A DNA stretch of 61,536 bases, the filler included, from Circinaria calcarea (lineage: Eukaryota), in assembly GCA_051942165.1 (NCBI GenBank). It is 10 parts of 10 records of this genome, joined end to end, with 100 filler letters (N's around TTAATTAATTAA, not from the genome) between each part and the next. Parts side by side here need not be neighbours in the genome. Positions count along the whole stretch, not along the records: positions 55,483 to 61,536 come from JAVECS010001689.1; 9 more parts are not named here. One strand, given 5' to 3'. Both the position numbers and the translations under genes were made by a program. The notes under the pieces are model-generated. The model did not search any database. It had not been told where the DNA came from and saw only the letters and a program-made list of their open reading frames with translations. Positions 3,278-61,536 of the stretch are shown piece after piece. Positions within the stretch are counted from its first letter, which is position 1, and the number at the start of each line of letters is the position of its first letter.

Positions 3278-3842
3278 AGGAATAGTCGCATCTAGAAGGC
3301 GTTGGGACTTTTCATGTACATTATAGCCTGTTACTAACATGCTAGTTTTAAGAGAGACAAGCAGATATAGAGACGTTAAATTTATGGTGCATCAATCTTC
3401 TCATGACTTGCATTGTTCTGACAATGGATCGTATCTGGTATCACGTTTAGTGTAATATTTCAGTAGGTTATGACAGTCGCATTGACTGTGTATTGTGAAG
3501 ACATATAACCTACTACGAGTCCACCGTGAGTCCCGGCAATCTTCCGGTAAGGTCATGAAATGCATCTAAGCGGAAGCTGATAGACATGGTTGGTCTCCTG
3601 AGCTCGGGTACATCTCAGGCTTGTTGCCACTGGTAAGCGTAGCCGAGTCGATATGATATGGCCGACATACCCACTTATTTATTAAAGTACTGCGAATAAT
3701 TTTCTAATTCGCCCAAATTTCGAGATCCCTTTGGAATACTACCGGATTATAGACGTCGATCTTGTCGGAAATACTCGCACATGTTGCGAGGCCAGCACCC
3801 TCTAAGATGACGACCGCCGGTTCACCGCCTCTCAGGCTCAAA

Positions 3843-5505
3843 ATGACACCGCGTTCACCTCTGACCTCCCTCGGGCTGGTCCTTTACTTGGCTACGGTGG
3901 CAGCAGCACATGAGCATCATGATGACAAGATACCCGAGGGAGAAGCGGTCTCACCAGACCCCATTGTTGGTGTACATTACCAGGAGTAGCTCTTCAAAGG
4001 GCTAACCTGGTATAGGATACAACTCTATGGATCCATATCGCCATCCAGATCTCGGCTTTCGGTCTCATCTTCCCTACCGGCATGGTGCTTGGGGTCAGTC
4101 TCCCATTATCTCCTTTGTACTCTCGTTCCCATGGTTCTCAACTGACCTCTCCGCTCACTAGATAATTCGATCCCGGTGGCACGTTCCTCTACAGACCCTG
4201 GGCGTCGTCGTATCTATAGTCGGCTACTTTCTCGGCCATGCTCATGGTGGACGGCAATTCGCACCTAACATACATGCCAAGTTCGCCTTCTCTCTTATGA
4301 TGATGCTCCTACTTCAGGTCGTCATGGGCATCTACCTCAAACTCCACTTGGAAAAGGGGATTCACGCTCGTCTGCGCCGATATGTTGTCCTTGGGCACGG
4401 GGTTGTGGGAAAGCTGATGCCCGTGGTCAGCTGGGTGCAGATGCTCTTCGGTGGCATTACGGCACTTGGGTTCTGCCGTGGCGATCACTTGGGTCAATGC
4501 CTTGCTCACTTTATAATGGGTAGCGCATTCATTGGTTATGGTATTGTCCTCACAATTATCCTTTTGGTCGGCCAGATCTGGCTCCAAAGGACCGGCCGAA
4601 GCCAGGAATTCTTCGATTCCCTTCTCATCTCAGCATGGGGTTGCGTCAACACCTTTACAGAACACCGCTGGGGAGGGCCGTGGGTGAAGAATGATTTACA
4701 ACATACAAGCATGGGTATCGTCTGGTGGTGCGCAGGATTATTAGGGATATGGCTGAGTAGGAGACGGGATGGACGACCAAAGCGGAATCTACTACCGGGA
4801 ATTGTGATCCTCATTACCGGATGGGCTATGAGTGCGCATCCCCAGGGTTTAGAACTCAGCACCATGGTTCATTCAGTATTCGGTTACACTCTCATGGCAG
4901 CGGGTGCAGCTCGGATTGTTGAAATATCATTCGTGGTCAAAGACCGAAACTCGGTGGATGAAAAAGACCCCGAAGAGAGTAACAGTTTTCAATTCCTAAC
5001 TCCTTTCGTAAGTCTCTTAATCCCACTTTTCTAAACCTATTCCTCAGGTATACATGACATCAAAATGGTAACAACTCTCCCCCCATAGCTCCTCTACGCC
5101 TCCGGCTTCCTCTTCATGGGCGCCACGGAAGAACAGATGGCCCTCCTGGCCTCCTCCCACGTCACGCACGTCTCCTACGTCCTCTTGCTCTACTCCCTCG
5201 CCTTCCTCCTCTTCCTCTTCGTCAGCATGCTGCTCCGGCTCTACGCCAACGCCGCGTGGCCTCTCTCCGCTTCCCCTTCCCTTCTCGTCAGCGAAGGCGT
5301 CCTCGCGCCGAAAAAGGACGATGGGGAGAATGGGATTGTTGTGGGAAATGGGAATGGGATTGGCATTGGGCATTTGGGCCGGGTGAGGGATGCAGAGGAG
5401 TTTGAGCTCGAGGGACTGATGAGCGATGCCGAGGATGCGGATGAGGTTAGTATCGGGAGTTCTTCGGCGGGTGGGGGTAAGAAGGAGACTCAGAGGGTTA
5501 GGTAA
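3843..5505 (+). CDS. YTP1: YTP1-like integral membrane protein (DUF2427/Ytp1 family); 4 exons
   Basis: Signal peptide followed by HEHHDD, LWIHIAIQ..FGLIFPTGMVLG, HLGQCLAHFIMGSAF, NTFTEHRWG, DLQHTSMG, FMGATEEQ. GT-AG introns near 3966-4015, 4095-4161 and 5008-5088. Confidence 0.88.
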
Positions 5506-55482: not shown

Positions 55483-56226
55483 TTTCTGTCCTGCCTCCCA
55501 TATTCCAAGCACAAAGTCTACTCGCTCGGTAGACGCGGTCATGTTGTAAGGGAGGACCACATATAGAATCCCCATGGCGTCCAGGGATGCGCAAAAGAGT
55601 TTGTGGAAGCCCACCCAGTCTTCTTTGCTTGTGGGCATTAATCGCACACCATCATCGAAGAGCCAGTCGGCACCTGCTTCGCAAACAACCATCAACGATT
55701 GCTTTATGTTCTGTTCCAGCGTCAAGTACGTGCTTGATGCCAATAACCTCTCGGCAGCGTTCTGCCCAACATATCGCCTTGCGTAGACGATGGGATCGAA
55801 TCCAGATCGGTCAGAGATAAACCATTGATCACCAGCTGATTTTTCTGCCTCTAATTGAGCTTCAAGCATCAATCTCTGCATCTCAAACGCCTTGGTGGGA
55901 GACGACGTTATGTCATCTGCTGTGAAAGCATGCTTTTGCAGCACGCCTCGAGCAACCTCTGTCAGAACTATTGGCTGGGCTATTGGATTTCCTCGCCATT
56001 TGCAACGCTCATGGCCATTGAACTGCTCCTGCAGGCTCTTGACCAGGGTGGTCTTCCCTGTACACTGGGCACCGACAATGTAGATGTTCGATGGCCTGGA
56101 TGGATAGCATGTCGCCTCCTTTTCAAGGCTGGAAGCCATTCCAACTTTCGTACTCCAACTCTTTAATAGTCGTGCAGTGATGGTAAGTGGTTGGTCTGGG
56201 GATGGCAATGAAATATGTCGATCCAT
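55483..56226 (-). CDS. P-loop nucleotide-kinase-like protein, NadR/Ttd14 AAA_28 type; intronless; extreme C-terminus cut by contig edge; start may be 56139
   Basis: IYIVGAQCTGKTTL (Walker A), EVARGVL, ISDRSGFDPIVY (D-R-S motif of NMP/dNMP-kinase-like folds), DDGVR, ERVDFV. Confidence 0.85.
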
Positions 56227-56310
56227 GCAGGCAGGGTAAGCTATTGTTACACAAACTACTCAGCCTCATCTTCACCAGGACCACCACCATCTTAGCACCC
56301 TAACTCGAAC

Positions 56311-59300
56311 ATGGCAAAACAGAGCTTGAATGGATGGCGCCATCAGCTGCAAAATCAAATTGATCCGGCCGATAACGAGTGGGCATACACTGTCCCAGCA
56401 CTACCAAAACCTTCTGTGCTCAACCTGCAGAGGCTACTGAAGTTTGTAGCAGTTACATCCAACGCGTCAAATCAGTGCATCGATTTGCGCCTATCAGGTG
56501 CCCCAATTAATAGGGCTCTTGCTAATGACGCCCTGGACCGCTTTCTTTCCGTCTCATTCAACGATTTTCATCTCTACTACCCGCCGAGCGCCACTCAGTC
56601 AAATAAAGTACAAGGCGTTGAAGGGAACCCGCAACGCGCTCCCCCAAAAGAATCAGCTGACTATGTAGTACGCCTTCTCAGATCAGGCATATCTCTCAAC
56701 GGAGTCCAATATCATTTTTATGGTCACGGCAACAGCCAGCTAAAGTCCAAGACCTGCTTCCTCTTCGCGGGTTCAAAAAATGAGATATCGCGCAAAATTG
56801 AAAGCCTCGGGGACTTCGCCAGAATCAAGACAGTTGCAAAGAAAGCGAAGAGAATAGGTCTTCTATTCTCTACTGCAGAATTCGCCATCGAACTACAGCC
56901 GGACCGATGTGAGGATATACCGGATGTGGTATCCAAAGACTATGTCTTCACCGATGGCTGTGGGTTAATTTCTAGGCATCTAGCTAATCTGCTAGCTCAA
57001 AAGGCGAGAATCCAGTTTCGAAACAAGTCTTACTTACCCTCGGTCTTCCAGATTCGATACAGAGGCTATAAAGGAGTGTTGACACTAGATCCTACCCTTA
57101 GGGGCCAAGTGCTCGCAAGGTTCCGGGACTCCATGAAGAAATTCAAGGGAGGAACTGATTTATCCTTATCTGTGATAGATTATTCAAAGGTATCTCACTC
57201 ATTAAACCAGATGCTATTGAGTTATTCATTGATTTATGTTCGTAGCCTTACAGTTTTGGTTATTTGAATGACGAGGTTGTCCTCTTGTTGCACTCCCTGG
57301 GAATCTCGGAGTTAGTTCTCCTCCGTAAACAGCGGGAGCATTATGACATGCTAGCCGGTGTCCACGATAGTCCACAGCATGCTTTTCGCTTCCTTACATA
57401 TTGTAATCGCCTTGATCTTGCCGAAAAGGTTGTACTCGATGGAGCTGAGTCGATTCAAAGCAGAATAAACAAATTACTCGATCAAGAGTACGACAAGATG
57501 CTGAACAAGCGGGACGATCAACGATGCCGCATTATGATCCCTAGGTCGAGACTTCTATTCGGAGTATGTGATCCTAGGGACGTTCTTAAAGAAGGAGAAT
57601 GTGCTGTCAGAGTGACTATGGACGGAGATGGGCAACCCCGGCAACTAACTGGGATGGAGATTCTTGTTACAAGAAATCCCTGCTTACATCCTGGCGACCT
57701 TCAAAAATTCAAAGCAGTGGAAAGACCAGAGCTTGCCCATTTGGTTGATTGCATAGTTTTCCCGACTTGGGGAAAGAGACCCAGCGCTGACCTGATGTCA
57801 GGGGGTGACCTCGATGGCGATACTTGTTAGTATATTCATACTGTTGGTACTTGCAAATTGCATTCCTAGATTACTAACATGCATCATTCCTTGTTTGCTG
57901 GGACTCCGAACTTATACCATCTATAATCTCTGAGCCAGCACACTACGCCAGTGCTAAGGAACCGGTCACCTTTAAACCGATAAGTGACGATGACCGCCTT
58001 GTGTACTTTGCGAGATACACGAATGCGTCATTAGGTCGGGTTAAAAACCTCTACCTGAAATGGGCGAGGCTTAAAGGTTCTATGAGTACAGAGTGTCAAG
58101 AGCTAAACCACCTTTTCTCCAAATGCGTGGATGGAAACCGTATCAAAGTCCCAGAACATCTAGAGAATCTTCCACAAGTACCCGATGATAACTCCAAATT
58201 CATCCTTGACATCCTACATGACGCTGCGAAAGAAGTGATTAACAGCCGTCAAAAGAACTTGCGGAGCTGTGATGGCTATTCATACAGCGCTATGCAGCGT
58301 TTGCTAAGTCGAGATGACTTAGCAATGTCAGAATTTGCACTGATAAAGGTCGCTTACAGATGGTGCCTAAACAATAACGCTAGTTTAGGAACTTTCCTGG
58401 AATTTTTTGATATGAATAACTTGAGAGACGAGGAGAAAGCTTGGGTCGTAGCTCAGCTACCGCCAACCATGGAGATGCCAAGTCTGGTGTTGAATGCTTT
58501 GACGCACTCGAGCTTTATATCCGAGAGCGAACTTTTCCCATTCAAGCTTCATTATCCTGGACTACGATGGAAGCGAATCTTTGATTCTAATCAGGACCGC
58601 ATGGCACGGTTTCTTCATGTCACTGCACAGTCGTTAGAACTGTTCGATAAAAAATTACTTGTACTACGAACCGACAATAGGTTGACTGTTGCTATATACG
58701 TACCCCGAAAGATCGAGAAACGGCAAGAGTGTCAAGTAGATGATACCGTTAGACTTTTTGCTTTCCCACATACTCAAGGTACCGAATCCTTCCAACGCCG
58801 AGCGGTACCCACCAAGGCAAATTATCGCCTTTACTGTGATGACAATGTTCTACAGCTCTACGAAGGTAAGCGGGCAAATACCTGGATTTGGCTTGCCCGG
58901 CCAGGCTCAGATGATACGACATATCGAAATCAAGAAAATGAGGGCCATCGCCGAAGAGAGCGGCAGGCGACGATAATGCGAGGCGAGAATTATGATTGTG
59001 TTGCCAGTATCGCACTAGGTAAATATAGTTCAAACCTACAGAAACACCTTGGGAGAGTTAATAGGGCGGAGATCCTCGGAGCTGTATGAACTTCTACCTC
59101 CAACCGAGCTCAAAATAGCTAATGGCTTAGGAAATATATGTTATTAGCAATCGTGATACTAAATCGCTGCAACTCCTCGACTTATGGCTTGAGTATATAG
59201 ACACCGAGAAAGTCGTCCCCCTTTTTGAAAAGGAAGCTCGAATCTACACTGTACCTGCGTTATCGAACACCGACTGGTCTACGGTATCTGTTAATTTGCG

Positions 59301-61536
59301 AGCAATCGCTCGTGATGGTAACTTTGCCTCATTCAAAACCTTCAAAAGCGTGGACCAATGCGACGAAGTGTTTAATTGGTTGCTGGAAAGAGACGAGAAA
59401 GGACTAATATTGCGCATCTACGACTACCTTCTCGAAAATATCAAGGAAAATTCTGGATTAGTGAGTCACTCTGCGTTACTTCGGACGATGTTAGCCTTCA
59501 CTCGAAAAGCACCATTCCTCTCTATATCCTTTACTAGAATTGAGGATTGGGGTAGCCTTGGGTTAGATGTACAATCCAGTCTAATTGAACAAGCGCCAAG
59601 TCTTTTGGAAGCACTTATATTGGCAGCTAATACAATGGAAGAAATCGCCGTGGATTCGTTTAAGAAGATACTCGCGAAGCTACCAGTTTTAGCGTTGAAG
59701 TGTCTTGGTACGCTATGCAAGACAATAGCTTTAACAGTTAATGCACCGGAGCTTGCGTTGGAACTTCTACTCGGCACTTTGGAGCCCGCAAGCAGTCGGC
59801 TTCTTCTTGGCCGACCAAAGGTCAATCAACATTATCTTCGCAGTCTTACCGGCATCGCACTGGAACATATTGACGAGGCAACTCAGTCCCGGCACCCAGC
59901 GCCAGGACTTATAGATTTGAAAAAAACCGGGAAGGATGGGACGGTTAAGGGCAAGCTCCGTATCGACTCTCCAATTTCAAGCCTTTTAAAGCTTCAAGAC
60001 CATGTTAGGCTCACAACTGCTAGCTCTCCAAGCAATAGTCAAACGCTCAAAATGTACTCCATGGACGCACTGATAGAGGCTTCGGAACCTGGGCGTGTGA
60101 TATTTCGATGCTTGCATCCTATACCTACATTTGTCGAGGAGTGTTCGTGGCAAGTTCAGAACTGTGGATCTTTCGTCACCAGCAAGACAACAATTGAAGC
60201 GCTCAATCGGTTCACCTTGGAGCCGGACACTTCCTGTAAGGTTCATGATCAGTTGCTGGGGCTGTTGGAACATGGTGCAACTGTATCAGTGGAGGCTATC
60301 TGCTATACCGAACGTAGTGATTTGAACGAAAGCCAGAATGCAGCTATCAAAGTGTCATTGGCTAATCCATTGACATGTTTATGGGGTCCACCAGGGACTG
60401 GAAAGACTCACACCATTATTGCTCTCCTGCAGGAGCTTTTACATGACGGGGTTGACAGGAGGATCTTGGTGACAGCTCCAACACATAATGCTGTCGATAA
60501 CGTGTTGCGCAAGTACGTCAGCGTCAAAGGCTCGGGACAACGTAATTGGATTGAGCCAATACGGGTAACAACTGATGTATAGTCTTGGTCCCCCACGCTG
60601 AGAAGAAACAAGCAGGATGCTAATTTAGTAATAGGTCAGGAAAGTAGCCGAAGATTTAAGAAATTATACATGCGATGCAATGATGGGCAAAGACCTGAAT
60701 GAGAACTTCTCCGCTCGAAAAAAAGCGCAAGAGCGTCTTGGCCATTCCCGTCTGGTCTTTACCACTTGTATAGGAGCTGGATTAGGTCTCTTGCGTTATG
60801 AAAGTTTCGATACAGTAGTTATCGACGAAGCGTCTCAGCAAACAGAGCCCGCATCATTGGTACCGTTAGTTAAGGAATGCACCAAGGCCATTCTCGTGGG
60901 CGACCACCTACAGCTCCGTGCTACGGTCCAGCAGCACGCCGTTCTTCAAGGGTTCGACGTATCGCTGTTTGAGCGACTATATAACCAAGACAGCATTGGA
61001 GTTTGCAAAGTCATGCTCGAATCTCAATACCGCATGCATCGGGAAATCTGCAGCTTCAGTTCCCAGGTGTTCTACGAGGGTAAATTGAAGACTGCTCTAG
61101 CTGATAATGCTCGACCTTTAGCTGACTCCGGGTTTCCGTGGCCAAACCTACCAAGTGACCAACATGCCAAGTCTCGCATGGTCTTTGTTCAATGCTCCAC
61201 AGCCGAAGATATCGGCCGAAAATCCAAAAGCAACAAAGGCCAAGCATCCATCTGCGCAGACATTTGCAAGCGCCTCATCACACCACCCAGTGACAACCCC
61301 TCGGTACCTGGTGTTCCTCTAATAACCCCTTCTATCGCCGTCCTAACACCCTACACCGCGCAAGCCGACCTCCTCAAAGCTACACTTCCCAGCAGCGTCT
61401 CCATCTCCAGCATTGACGGCTTCCAAGGTCGAGAAGCCGACGTCGTAATCTTCTGCACCGTCCGCTGCAACGTCCACTACGAGATTGGCTTTTTGAAAGA
61501 TCTGAGACGCTTGAATGTGGCCATGACGAGGGCGAG
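56311..61536 (+). CDS. Fusion of a eukaryotic RNA-dependent RNA polymerase (QDE-1/RDR type), an unknown middle region and a Upf1-like SF1 helicase (3' end truncated)
   Basis: Exons 56311-57189, 57246-57825, 57888-59083, 59131-60576 and 60635-end. RdRP motifs: YHFYGHGNSQLK, KRIGLLFS, FTDGCG, FQIRYRGYKG, LNDEVV, LFGVCDP, TRNPCLHPGD, MSGGDLDGD. Helicase motifs: LNESQ, WGPPGTGKT, APTHNAVD, IDEASQ, VGDHLQL, SLFERL, QYRMH, LTPY, IDGFQGRE, RLNVAMTRA. Confidence 0.9.

What the first reader, a model, noticed from the sequence alone, without database searches (positions are those of the whole stretch)
56311..61536. RNA-dependent RNA polymerase and Upf1-like helicase encoded as one polypeptide
Seen: five exons join in frame into more than 1660 codons carrying the RdRP catalytic GGDLDGD and the full set of SF1 helicase motifs. 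The RdRP part is compact and begins near the N-terminus. Known: RdRPs work with separate SF1 helicases (S. pombe Rdp1-Hrr1, Neurospora SAD-1/SAD-3, C. elegans EGO-1/ZNFX-1, plant RDR6/SDE3), and the characterised QDE-1, SAD-1 and RRP-3 are not helicase fusions. Inference: a Rosetta-stone fusion defining an additional, uncharacterised fungal RdRP class that unwinds and copies target RNA by itself.
Basis: partly seen in the sequence, partly recalled or inferred. Interest (0 to 1): 0.8.

Follow-up and report, generated by a model that had tools for sequence, protein, structure and literature searches.

The report
RdRP-helicase fusion gene, known class
This lichen-fungus gene does encode an RNA-copying enzyme and an RNA helicase as one protein, but the same fused protein is already described in Fusarium (Fgrdrp5); what looks new is a TLDc-like domain inside it and a kinase-like partner gene next door that is fused to it in some animals.

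Summary
Five exons (56311-61536, + strand) join into 1667 stop-free codons with RdRP (DLDGD) at the N-terminus and a complete Upf1-like SF1 helicase at the C-terminus. The contig end cuts off about 54 codons.

One flaw: intron 2 ends in AT where a relative has AG at the same position and phase.

The protein is collinear end to end (49.6% identity) with Fusarium graminearum Fgrdrp5 (FGSG_09076). That RdRP+helicase architecture was published in 2015, and its knock-out phenotype (ascospore discharge, ex-siRNA) in 2024. So the class is neither new nor uncharacterised.

It is also not fungus-specific. The same architecture occurs in Basidiomycota, Glomeromycota, amphioxus, a sponge, a bivalve and a green alga, and all helicase-bearing RdRPs form one clade in my tree.

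I found no paper in seven literature searches for two further points:
- A TLDc-like fold (Z 13.1) and a helical-repeat domain lie between polymerase and helicase.
- The divergent neighbour gene (AAA_28, NadR/Ttd14-like P-loop NTPase) is adjacent to the RdRP-helicase gene in other fungi and is fused to its N-terminus in animal relatives.

Verdict: new member of a known kind, with a possibly new four-part system around it.

The parts
56311..57189 (+). Exon 1: start codon and N-terminal part of the RdRP domain
   Evidence: Pfam RdRP 5.5e-46, profile 26-238. The N-terminus matches P0002. Donor GTATCT at 57190.
57246..57825 (+). Exon 2: RdRP catalytic part ending in GGDLDGDT (DLDGD at 57807-57821)
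   Evidence: Pfam RdRP 2.6e-47, profile 243-440. PDB best hit is Arabidopsis RDR2 at 1e-23; QDE-1 scores 3e-13.
57826..57887 (+). Intron 2, 62 nt, phase 1: GTTAGT donor, TACTAAC branch site, but AT instead of AG at the acceptor
   Evidence: The relative L001 has an intron at the same position and phase, GTAAGT...AATAG. Pfam profile positions 440|441 are continuous across the join.
57888..59083 (+). Exon 3: C-terminal end of the RdRP domain (to about 58183), a short helical bundle (about 58259-58489, weakly BACK-like), and a TLDc-like domain (about 58487-59083, continuing into the start of exon 4)
   Evidence: 53% identity to Fgrdrp5 residues 482-881. AF2 model pLDDT 79.7. VIA-align Z 13.1 to the OXR2 TLDc domain 4acj, with the next unrelated hit at Z 6.2. 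Pfam TLD is weak only, E 0.047.
59131..60576 (+). Exon 4: last TLDc strand (inferred), helical-repeat domain (about 59263-59886), 1B beta-barrel with stalk (about 59911-60171), and the start of the helicase core with Walker A GPPGTGKT (60385-60408)
   Evidence: 39% identity to Fgrdrp5 residues 882-1346. AF2 model pLDDT 88.6, pTM 0.84. Foldseek best hit Upf1 at 2.9e-7. VIA-align gives SETX, Sen1 and Upf1 at Z 8.4-8.8. Pfam AAA_11 1.2e-17. The exon end follows the family consensus.
60635..61536 (+). Exon 5 (open at the window end): helicase motifs II-VI; AAA_11 C-terminal part and AAA_12
   Evidence: Pfam AAA_12 3.8e-47 and AAA_11 2.7e-22. PDB best hits UPF1/NAM7 at 5e-39. NCBIfam IGHMBP2-family helicase 1e-54, below its cut-off.
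55483..56139 (-). Divergent neighbour gene: AAA_28 (NadR/Ttd14-like) P-loop NTPase, cut by the contig start. Proposed partner of the RdRP-helicase
   Evidence: Pfam AAA_28 1.3e-24, 87.7 bits against a cut-off of 27. The same neighbour occurs in L001. Locus tags are consecutive in 3 fungi. It is fused N-terminally in animal relatives.
56140..56310 (.). 171-bp intergenic region between the two divergent start codons (shared promoter, inferred)
   Evidence: Sequence read. The equivalent gap in L001 is roughly 210 bp.

Best explanation
The stretch holds the Circinaria calcarea orthologue of Fusarium graminearum Fgrdrp5. It is one gene of at least five exons encoding one protein of about 1720 aa.

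Shown, domain order:
- A cellular RdRP with DLDGD (residues about 74-585).
- A short helical bundle.
- A TLDc-like domain.
- A helical-repeat domain.
- A Upf1-like SF1 helicase with a 1B barrel and all motifs I-VI.

Shown, conservation: polymerase and helicase sit in one reading frame, and this arrangement is conserved across Dikarya and beyond.

Inferred from the published Fgrdrp5 knock-out: the protein makes or helps make double-stranded RNA that feeds Dicer-dependent exonic siRNAs, mainly during sporulation and sexual development.

Inferred mechanism (knowledge of Upf1-like helicases is recalled, not tested here):
- The Upf1-like motor uses ATP to move 5'->3' on single-stranded RNA.
- In doing so it clears protein and structure from the template, or peels the nascent strand off it.
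- This lets the tethered polymerase initiate at a free 3' end and recycle.
- The TLDc-like and helical-repeat domains act as docking surfaces.

Inferred from gene adjacency in fungi and fusion in animals: the neighbouring AAA_28 P-loop NTPase works with this protein, perhaps as a nucleotide or RNA-end kinase. In this assembly the AT acceptor of intron 2 leaves open whether this copy is spliced correctly.
For: Gene model: 1667 stop-free codons with all motifs.

Pfam: RdRP, AAA_11 and AAA_12 across the exons.

Orthology with Fgrdrp5 (P0150 = FGSG_09076):
- A single BLASTP segment, 49.6% identity, model residues 21-1667 against P0150 residues 22-1667 of 1721.
- Exon 3 ends at P0150 residue 881 and exon 4 starts at residue 882.

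Homologues:
- By my count, 51 of the 120 listed homologues carry PF05183 with PF13087, and 83 of 120 carry PF05183 with PF13086.
- A search with the family-specific linker gave 84 hits. They include FGSG_09076, Trichoderma reesei, Ascobolus and three Basidiomycota.
- Single ORFs of 890-897 aa in other species span the RdRP C-terminus through to the helicase N-terminus.

Tree: 85 RdRP domains. All 51 helicase-bearing rows fall in one 71-row clade (SH-aLRT 100), apart from 14 unfused rows. The window lies with Lecanoromycetes inside a starred ascomycete clade that also holds Fgrdrp5.

Folds:
- TLDc-like: the top six hits are all TLDc domains at Z 13.1-9.8; the next hit is at Z 6.2.
- Upf1, SETX and Sen1 folds match the 1B barrel, stalk and RecA1 region.

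Published function and domains.

Partner gene.

Selection: a biocrust relative about 90-92% identical differs by a +3 nt indel in exon 1 and a 1-nt indel inside intron 1. A third listed indel (+2 nt at 58889) comes from a short 219-nt contig with loose ends and may be another organism.
Against: - No RNA data exist for this organism. The only sequencing run listed was DNA, so a single transcript is not shown here directly.
- Intron 2 lacks an AG acceptor. The first AG downstream (57933-34) would shift the frame. The next (57937-38, used in the deposited model P0001) deletes 17 conserved codons right after the catalytic loop. This copy could therefore be defective, or the base could be an assembly error.
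- The gene is truncated by the contig end.
- No activity was measured, neither polymerase, helicase nor kinase. The published knock-out only partly lowers ex-siRNAs, and its authors also raise rRNA processing and NMD as possible roles.
- Pfam TLD scores 14 bits against a cut-off of 24.5, so the TLDc assignment rests on a predicted structure.
- In the animal Branchiostoma, no RdRP-dependent siRNAs were found (abstract and passages). The RNAi role may therefore not be general.
Confidence: 0.8

Rival explanations
1. The gene is a recently disabled copy (pseudogene or null allele) in this lichen fungus. The G->T change at the intron 2 acceptor forces mis-splicing, so no full-length RdRP-helicase is made even though the rest is intact.
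For: The intron 2 acceptor is AT where L001 has AG at the same position and phase. The first downstream AG is out of frame. The second removes 17 conserved residues directly after DLDGD.
Against: There is not one stop or frameshift in 5003 nt of coding sequence, and all catalytic motifs are intact. The region that would be skipped is still conserved, FLVCWDSELIP against FFVCWDPDLIP in Fgrdrp5. The change is a single base in a metagenome-assembled contig and may be a consensus error or polymorphism. A relative about 92% identical shows no indel across this intron; its base at the acceptor was not displayed.
Confidence: 0.15
2. One reading: a previously unrecognised, uncharacterised, fungus-specific RdRP class that acts autonomously by unwinding and copying RNA alone. 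It would be a Rosetta stone for the Rdp1-Hrr1 or SAD-1/SAD-3 type of partnership.
For: Fusion of RdRP and an SF1 helicase is confirmed. The published trees place it on a branch separate from QDE-1, SAD-1 and RRP-3.
Against: The class is published and has been knocked out. It is present in animals and a green alga. The helicase is nearer UPF1 (5e-39) than ZNFX1 (6e-15), and no NFX1 zinc fingers were found. A conserved extra partner and extra domains argue against autonomy.
Confidence: 0.05
3. Two adjacent genes, an RdRP and a helicase, wrongly read as one. The apparent fusion would be an artefact of joining ORFs.
For: No transcript data exist for this organism. The deposited annotation differs from the five-exon model at three junctions.
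Against: The 700-aa linker is coding, conserved and predicted to fold confidently. Only a 47-nt GT..AG intron interrupts it, and the join is exact against Fgrdrp5 at 881|882. Other species have one uninterrupted ORF across it. Even the deposited model is a single protein.
Confidence: 0.02

Closest known systems
Fusarium graminearum Fgrdrp5 / FgRdRp5 (FGSG_09076; P0150)
   Same: Same order of RdRP, linker and AAA_11/AAA_12 helicase at almost the same coordinates. The helicase starts at about 1283 here, against 1277-1281 there. It is 49.6% identical in one collinear alignment and lies in the same starred ascomycete clade.
   Different: Different class of fungi (Lecanoromycetes against Sordariomycetes). 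The copy here is cut by the contig end and has an AT acceptor at intron 2. The papers name only the RdRP, DEXDc and AAA domains, not the TLDc-like or helical-repeat parts or the AAA_28 neighbour (passages read). I did not check the neighbour of FGSG_09076.
Branchiostoma BL02069 and other animal RdRPs carrying AAA_12 (Pinzon et al. 2019, PMC6396948)
   Same: B. belcheri P0258 has RdRP, a TLDc-like module and AAA_11/AAA_12. It lies in the same 71-row clade.
   Different: About 40% identity in the catalytic part. The helical-repeat HMM does not match. The paper found no RdRP-dependent siRNAs in amphioxus. The sponge and bivalve relatives carry AAA_28 fused at the N-terminus.
RDRC-type pairs: S. 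pombe Rdp1-Hrr1, Neurospora SAD-1/SAD-3 (recalled, not tested here)
   Same: An RdRP working together with an SF1 (AAA_11/AAA_12) helicase in small-RNA pathways.
   Different: There they are separate polypeptides, and the helicase is of the ZNFX1/Hrr1 type. Here it is one chain, and the helicase is closest to UPF1/NAM7, with ZNFX1 the weakest of the 19 PDB sequences matched.
UPF1/NAM7, IGHMBP2, SETX/Sen1 helicases
   Same: All SF1 motifs are present, with a 1B barrel and stalk in front of RecA1.
   Different: No CH zinc-knuckle domain of UPF1 was found (Pfam). A helical-repeat domain precedes the core, more like SETX/Sen1 or Aquarius. It is attached to a polymerase.
TLDc-domain proteins (OXR1/2, NCOA7, mEAK7, TBC1D24/Skywalker, Rtc5p)
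   Same: Same fold: Z 13.1-9.8, 137-156 residues aligned, rmsd 2.8-3.8.
   Different: 9-15% identity and below the Pfam cut-off. The solved relatives bind V-ATPase, according to the entry titles. Nothing links this one to V-ATPase.
NadR ribosylnicotinamide-kinase domain / Ttd14 (AAA_28)
   Same: The neighbour gene matches PF13521 well above its cut-off and has an invariant Walker A motif GAQxTGKT.
   Different: It matches NadR only distantly, at 22.9-30.3 bits against a cut-off of 341, and has no PDB sequence match. Its substrate is unknown.
Coronavirus nsp12 RdRp with nsp13 helicase (search listing only; otherwise recalled)
   Same: An RNA-copying polymerase coupled to a Upf1-like SF1B helicase.
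   Different: The polymerase fold is unrelated (viral palm against cellular double-psi barrel). The chains are separate. This is a functional analogy only.

Membership tests
Cellular (eukaryotic) RdRP, Pfam PF05183 | Profile match above the gathering score over most of the domain | tested here: met
   157.9, 162.2 and 37.5 bits in exons 1-3, against a cut-off of 23.8. Profile positions 26-546 of 582 are covered, continuously across the joins.
Cellular (eukaryotic) RdRP, Pfam PF05183 | Catalytic DxDGD loop | tested here: met
   GGDLDGD at model residues 479-485, window 57801-57821. The motif definition is recalled.
Cellular (eukaryotic) RdRP, Pfam PF05183 | Template-dependent RNA synthesis | not testable with these tools
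   Needs a biochemical assay.
Fgrdrp5 class (RdRP + C-terminal SF1 helicase) | Collinear full-length similarity to FGSG_09076, including the family-specific linker | tested here: met
   One segment at 49.6% identity over 1676 columns. Exons 3 and 4 align to residues 482-881 and 882-1346. Both proteins were found with the Colletotrichum linker as query.
Fgrdrp5 class (RdRP + C-terminal SF1 helicase) | RdRP domain groups with FGSG_09076 rather than with unfused RdRPs | tested here: met
   Both lie in a 15-row clade (SH-aLRT 97) inside the 71-row fused clade (SH-aLRT 100), in a quick IQ-TREE of 85 rows.
Fgrdrp5 class (RdRP + C-terminal SF1 helicase) | Role in ex-siRNA accumulation and ascospore discharge | not testable with these tools
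   Known only from the F. graminearum knock-out (PMC11237814, passages).
Upf1-like SF1 helicase (AAA_11 / AAA_12) | Pfam AAA_11 and AAA_12 above their cut-offs | tested here: met
   AAA_11 at 65.1 and 80.2 bits, AAA_12 at 160.8 bits, against a cut-off of 27.
Upf1-like SF1 helicase (AAA_11 / AAA_12) | Motifs I, II, III, IV, V and VI intact | tested here: met
   GPPGTGKT, DEASQ, VGDH, QYRMH, GFQGRE and TRA are found in order. The motif names are recalled.
Upf1-like SF1 helicase (AAA_11 / AAA_12) | 1B beta-barrel and stalk in front of RecA1 | tested here: met
   The AF2 model has strands at 261-347 followed by helices. Foldseek gives Upf1 at 2.9e-7, probability 1.0. VIA-align gives SETX, Sen1 and Upf1 at Z 8.4-8.8 over residues 190-478.
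UPF1 proper (NMD helicase) | N-terminal CH (zinc-knuckle) domain that binds UPF2 | tested here: not met
   No such Pfam family appears in any exon. A helical-repeat domain precedes the core instead. The protein is not UPF1 itself, despite database names such as 'related to NAM7'.
ZNFX1 / Hrr1 / SAD-3 helicases | NFX1-type zinc fingers, and closest similarity to ZNFX1 | tested here: not met
   No zinc-finger family was found. ZNFX1 (9q9z) scores 6e-15 against 5e-39 for UPF1 and is the weakest of the 19 sequences matched. Hrr1 and SAD-3 themselves were not compared.
TLDc domain (Pfam PF07534) | Profile match above the gathering score | tested here: not met
   14.0 bits, E 0.047, against a cut-off of 24.5. 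I therefore call it TLDc-like, not a Pfam TLD member.
TLDc domain (Pfam PF07534) | TLDc fold | tested here: met
   The top six of 48161 chains are all TLDc domains at Z 13.1-9.8, with a gap to Z 6.2. Foldseek gives probability 1.0 but E 0.03. The model has pLDDT mostly 80-96 in this part.
AAA_28 (NadR/Ttd14-like NTPase), the neighbour gene | Profile match above the gathering score, and a Walker A motif | tested here: met
   87.7 bits against a cut-off of 27. G19, A20, Q21, T23, G24, K25 and T27 are invariant in 42 homologues.
AAA_28 (NadR/Ttd14-like NTPase), the neighbour gene | Ribosylnicotinamide kinase activity (NadR equivalog) | tested here: not met
   TIGR01526 scores 22.9 bits against a cut-off of 341. 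The source name 'nicotinamide riboside kinase' is unsupported.

The most novel reading that the evidence does not exclude
The RdRP-helicase may be the core of an old, conserved four-part machine. Its parts are an AAA_28 (NadR/Ttd14-like) P-loop NTPase or kinase, a cellular RdRP, a TLDc-like domain and a Upf1-like helicase.

In fungi, AAA_28 is a separate gene transcribed divergently from a shared promoter of about 170-210 bp. In a sponge, a bivalve and other (unnamed) eukaryotes it is fused to the N-terminus of the same RdRP-TLDc-helicase protein.

This would define an RdRP pathway distinct from the QDE-1, SAD-1 and RRP-3 type. It would have an unrecognised nucleotide- or RNA-end-phosphorylating step. 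It might explain why animals without RdRP-dependent RNAi keep these genes.

I found no paper in the library searched that links AAA_28/Ttd14 or TLDc with a cellular RdRP.
Probability: 0.5. Interest if true: 0.65.

Novelty: new member of a known kind. Interest (0 to 1): 0.42.

Why it matters
As first framed, the finding adds little. RdRP-helicase fusion proteins of this class are in print and in many annotated genomes.

Three things give it residual value:
- It shows that the deposited gene model for this lichen fungus drops 66 conserved residues at three junctions.
- It shows that the class is not a Fusarium oddity. It is a clade reaching from Ascomycota to animals and a green alga.
- It supplies two testable leads on a poorly understood enzyme: an embedded TLDc-like domain, and a conserved AAA_28 partner that is adjacent in fungi and fused in animals.

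If the partner link is real, it gives a concrete handle on what these RdRPs do in organisms where no RdRP-dependent siRNAs are seen. Pinzon et al. called this 'an evolutionary enigma'.

Tried and rejected
- Own genome: none is held for this window.
- RNA evidence: no RNA holder was listed; the one DNA run X1 was found.
- X1 contigs were laid on the stretch. They cover it at about 90-92% identity, but only 40 of 428 differences were displayed.
- The metagenome-contig scan with exon 3 alone found no relative. The second scan, with alignment A1, gave one locus, L001.
- Complex prediction with Letrouitia subvulpina RdRP residues 1-600 (P0021) and its neighbour AAA_28 (P0411) gave no verdict: score 0.00, alignments not used. 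This is no evidence either way. Other domains were not tried.
- The AAA_28 neighbour has no PDB sequence match at E <= 1.
- The search of earlier findings returned nothing.
- All GT..AG alternatives for intron 2 were rejected. The acceptor at 57868-69 runs into TAA at 57875-77. The AG at 57933-34 is out of frame. The AG at 57937-38 is in frame but deletes conserved residues. The donor at 57830 needs a non-AG acceptor as well.
- The alpha, beta or gamma RdRP subfamily could not be assigned, because no named QDE-1, SAD-1 or RRP-3 sequences were obtainable. Only the PDB ranking (RDR2 above QDE-1) and the statements in the papers are available.
- The BACK-like label for residues 125-201 of exon 3 is weak: Z 6.2, and Pfam BACK at E 0.14 in one homologue.
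- PMC13650160 was opened and found irrelevant.
- No Neurospora, Aspergillus or yeast entry appeared in the listed rows. Given the word-based, truncated lists, I treat this as no evidence of absence.

Full report
WHAT IS THERE

The window is a chain of about ten contigs of roughly 6 kb each, joined by paired runs of 44 N. The finding lies on the last contig, 55483-61536 (6054 nt).

Stop-to-stop ORFs on the + strand tile 56296-61534 in three frames. I read the DNA and set these exons:

| Part | Coordinates | Note |
|---|---|---|
| Exon 1 | 56311-57189 | |
| Intron 1 | 57190-57245 | 56 nt, GT..AG |
| Exon 2 | 57246-57825 | |
| Intron 2 | 57826-57887 | 62 nt, non-canonical end |
| Exon 3 | 57888-59083 | |
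| Intron 3 | 59084-59130 | 47 nt, GT..AG |
| Exon 4 | 59131-60576 | |
| Intron 4 | 60577-60634 | 58 nt, GT..AG |
| Exon 5 | 60635-61536 | open at the window end |

Joined in a script, the exons give 1667 codons without a stop. The motifs found, in model residues, are DLDGD at 481, GPPGTGKT at 1304, DEASQ 1431, VGDH 1455, QYRMH 1498, GFQGRE 1629 and TRA 1665.

Pfam places RdRP (PF05183) in exons 1-3, at profile positions 26-238, 243-440 and 441-546. It places AAA_11 in exons 4 and 5, and AAA_12 in exon 5.

THE ONE FLAW IN THE MODEL

Intron 2 has a good donor (GTTAGT) and a TACTAAC branch site but ends CATCAT. No AG gives an open frame that keeps the conserved FLVCWD block.

A 61%-identical relative on a metagenome contig (L001) has an intron at the same codon and phase, GDT t|GTAAGT...AATAG|tc. 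ORF-type proteins from other species start exactly at RdRP profile position 441-442. The intron position is therefore old, and this assembly has T where G is expected at 57887.

I cannot tell whether this is an assembly error, a polymorphism or a real lesion. A relative about 90-92% identical in a biocrust metagenome covers the place without an indel, but its base there was not displayed.

In that relative one indel is +3 nt inside exon 1 and one is 1 nt inside intron 1, as expected of a gene under selection. A third listed indel (+2 nt at 58889, in exon 3) comes from a 219-nt contig at higher depth with loose ends on both sides. It may belong to another organism.

THE DEPOSITED MODEL

The best database hit is the deposited protein of this very contig: Circinaria calcarea MAG, Q9187_006333, partial, 1571 aa (P0001). 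Compared with conserved orthologues it misses three pieces:
- 17 residues after DLDGD, because it uses the AG at 57937-38.
- 45 residues around intron 3.
- 4 residues (VTTD) at intron 4.

The five-exon model fits the family better.

IS IT ONE PROTEIN?

The link between polymerase and helicase is about 700 residues of conserved coding sequence inside exons 3 and 4. Only the 47-nt intron 3 interrupts it.
- Exon 3 aligns with residues 482-881 of FGSG_09076 (53% identity).
- Exon 4 aligns with residues 882-1346 (39% identity), so the join is exact.
- The whole model gives one BLASTP segment with FGSG_09076: 49.6% identity, model 21-1667 against 22-1667 of 1721. It does the same with orthologues from Letrouitia, Phialocephala, Parastagonospora, Trichoderma and Ascobolus.
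- In other species, single ORFs of 890-897 aa run from the RdRP C-terminus into the helicase.
- By my count, 51 of the 120 listed homologues carry PF05183 with PF13087, and 83 of 120 carry PF05183 with PF13086.

No RNA run is on record for this organism. A single transcript is therefore inferred, not shown.

IS IT NEW? NO

- Chen et al. [quoted passage not shown] They also state that it is nearer plant RdRPs than QDE-1 or RRP-3.
- The 2024 mBio paper (PMC11237814; passages read) gives the domains at 1277-1478 and 1475-1677. It places the protein on a separate branch and reports higher expression in sporulation and sexual stages. Deletion lowers ascospore discharge to 47.6% and partly lowers ex-siRNAs.
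- Pinzon et al. 2019 note AAA_12 on Branchiostoma BL02069 (PMC6396948).
- Two further Fusarium papers name FgRdRp5 (search listing only).

FGSG_09076 (P0150) turned up in a search with the family-specific linker of a Colletotrichum orthologue (2.8e-172). So did the window's own protein (3.5e-153).

HOW WIDE IS THE CLASS?

A full HMMER scan with exon 2 found 3072 relatives at E <= 1e-3, of which 60 were at E <= 1e-30. Module HMMs built from the family show RdRP, a TLDc-like module and the helicase in many representatives of 1600-2400 aa.

Names could be obtained for a few:
- Diversispora eburnea (Glomeromycota)
- Branchiostoma belcheri
- Ephydatia muelleri (sponge)
- Dreissena polymorpha (bivalve)
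- Gonium pectorale (green alga)
- Anneissia japonica (crinoid, no helicase hit)

Pfam confirms the architecture.

I built a quick IQ-TREE of 85 RdRP domains. All 51 helicase-bearing rows lie in one 71-row clade (SH-aLRT 100). The 14 unfused rows (scorpion, Massospora, amoebozoans and others) lie outside it. Of the 20 rows in the clade without a helicase hit, 16 are under 1100 aa and most look like fragments.

The window sits with Lecanoromycetes inside an ascomycete clade that also holds Fgrdrp5.

Limits of the tree: only the 150 best representatives were available, most are unnamed, and no named QDE-1, SAD-1 or RRP-3 could be added.

WHAT THE LINKER IS

The AF2 model of exon 3 (pLDDT 79.7) was compared with 48161 chains. 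The top six hits are all TLDc domains:

| Hit | Z | Aligned residues, rmsd |
|---|---|---|
| OXR2 (4acj) | 13.1 | 149, rmsd 2.9 |
| NCOA7B | 13.0 | |
| mEAK7 | 12.0 | |
| Skywalker | 11.1 | |
| Oxr1 | 10.2 | |
| Rtc5p | 9.8 | |

The next hit drops to Z 6.2. It matches the BACK region of KLHL11 on residues 125-201.

Foldseek ranks the same TLDc entries first (probability 1.0) but at E 0.03. Pfam TLD reaches only 14 bits. I therefore call the domain TLDc-like. By sequence pattern its last strand seems to lie at the start of exon 4; this is an inference.

The exon 4 model (pLDDT 88.6, pTM 0.84) shows three parts:
- A helical repeat (about 45-252), which resembles HEAT/ARM proteins only generically (Z 7.4-8.4).
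- A beta-barrel (261-347) with stalk helices.
- The start of RecA1.

This model matches Upf1 (Foldseek 2.9e-7) and SETX/Sen1 (Z 8.6-8.8).

By sequence the helicase core is nearest UPF1/NAM7 (5e-39). IGHMBP2, SETX, DNA2 and Sen1 follow, and ZNFX1 comes last (6e-15).

THE NEIGHBOUR

The gene transcribed divergently from a start 171 bp upstream (55483-56139, - strand) is an AAA_28 P-loop NTPase (87.7 bits). L001 has the same divergent neighbour.

Among the 120 listed homologues of this neighbour:
- Three carry locus tags consecutive with the RdRP-helicase gene of the same genome: Cudoniella g9546/g9545, Letrouitia subvulpina 000504/000505, and Oculimacula 5358/5359.
- 13 in all, counting the window, share the longest-contig length with an RdRP-helicase protein.

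In the sponge protein, an AAA_28 domain (residues 22-194, 65.4 bits) sits in front of the RdRP. It aligns with the window's neighbour at 30% identity, E 3e-15.

An HMM of the 120 fungal neighbours hits 16 of the 260 session proteins of 600 aa or more, always at the N-terminus. Fifteen of these are rows of the 30-row subclade of the tree that holds the sponge protein. The sixteenth (P0312) is a cluster mate of P0222, a row of that subclade, and was not itself in the tree.

Pfam AAA_28 is above its cut-off in 6 of the 14 long proteins scanned, and weak in 2 more.

Adjacency in fungi plus fusion in animals is the classic signature of a functional link. A structure-based test of direct binding gave no verdict (see Tried and rejected).

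The neighbour is only distantly like the NadR kinase domain, so its substrate is open.

I found no paper linking AAA_28/Ttd14 or TLDc with a cellular RdRP. Supplements of the Fusarium papers were not opened and could hold domain drawings.

HOW IT PROBABLY WORKS

Shown:
- One chain carries an intact RdRP catalytic loop and an intact Upf1-like ATPase/helicase.
- The two are separated by two folded, conserved modules.

Published for the orthologue:
- It contributes to Dicer-dependent exonic siRNAs and to ascospore maturation.

Inferred:
- The helicase moves 5'->3' on RNA (recalled property of the family).
- It either strips the template so that the polymerase can start at its 3' end, or follows the polymerase on the product strand and releases it.
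- The TLDc-like and helical domains dock partners or RNA.
- The AAA_28 protein supplies a phosphorylation or NTPase step.

The RNAi role may not be general. Amphioxus keeps such genes without detectable RdRP-made siRNAs.

VERDICT

The gene is real and correctly seen, and it is an orthologue of a described protein class. The claim of a new, uncharacterised, autonomous fungal class is not upheld. The embedded TLDc-like domain and the conserved or fused AAA_28 partner are the parts worth following.

Noticed in passing
window 6077-55482 (N runs at about 6.15-kb steps): The window is not one continuous piece of genome. About ten contigs of roughly 6 kb are joined by paired 44-N runs with a 12-base spacer. 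Gene neighbourhood is meaningful only within 55483-61536.
   Followed up: partly
window 57826-57939, 59019-59200, 60565-60576: The deposited protein model of this contig (P0001, 1571 aa) differs from the conserved family at three junctions and loses 17 + 45 + 4 residues.
   Followed up: yes
window 56311-61536 against run X1: A biocrust metagenome holds a relative about 90-92% identical, covering the whole gene in 7 contig pieces. One piece runs 961 nt past the window end, and one runs 2287 nt upstream. It would give the missing 3' end and the base at the intron 2 acceptor.
   Followed up: partly
L001 2556-3218 (-) and about 3426-5396 (+): An unnamed soil or plant-associated fungus on a JGI contig has the same head-to-head AAA_28 / RdRP-helicase pair, with roughly 210 bp between the starts.
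   Followed up: yes
proteins P0061, P0078 (Venturia) and P0093 (Kalmusia), P0117 (Lasiodiplodia): Orthologues carry misleading source names ('Methylisocitrate lyase', 'PhoH-like protein', 'related to NAM7'). P0093 (2011 aa) also carries short-chain dehydrogenase domains, probably from a merged gene model.
   Followed up: no
protein P0215 (1986 aa, unnamed ENA source), residues 1945-1962: There are weak CCCH zinc-finger hits at the C-terminus of one AAA_28-RdRP-TLDc-helicase protein (E 0.012-0.026, below the cut-off).
   Followed up: no
protein P0290 (Gonium pectorale, 2511 aa): A green alga has RdRP, the TLDc-like module and AAA_11/AAA_12 in one protein. This is either a very old architecture or a transfer. 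It was left out of the tree because its RdRP match is partial.
   Followed up: partly
protein P0197 (Anneissia japonica, 1730 aa): The crinoid protein has its best exon 2 match at 1073-1276, the family RdRP HMM at 121-587, and the TLDc-like module at 1481-1702, with no helicase hit. It may be a tandem or merged model.
   Followed up: no
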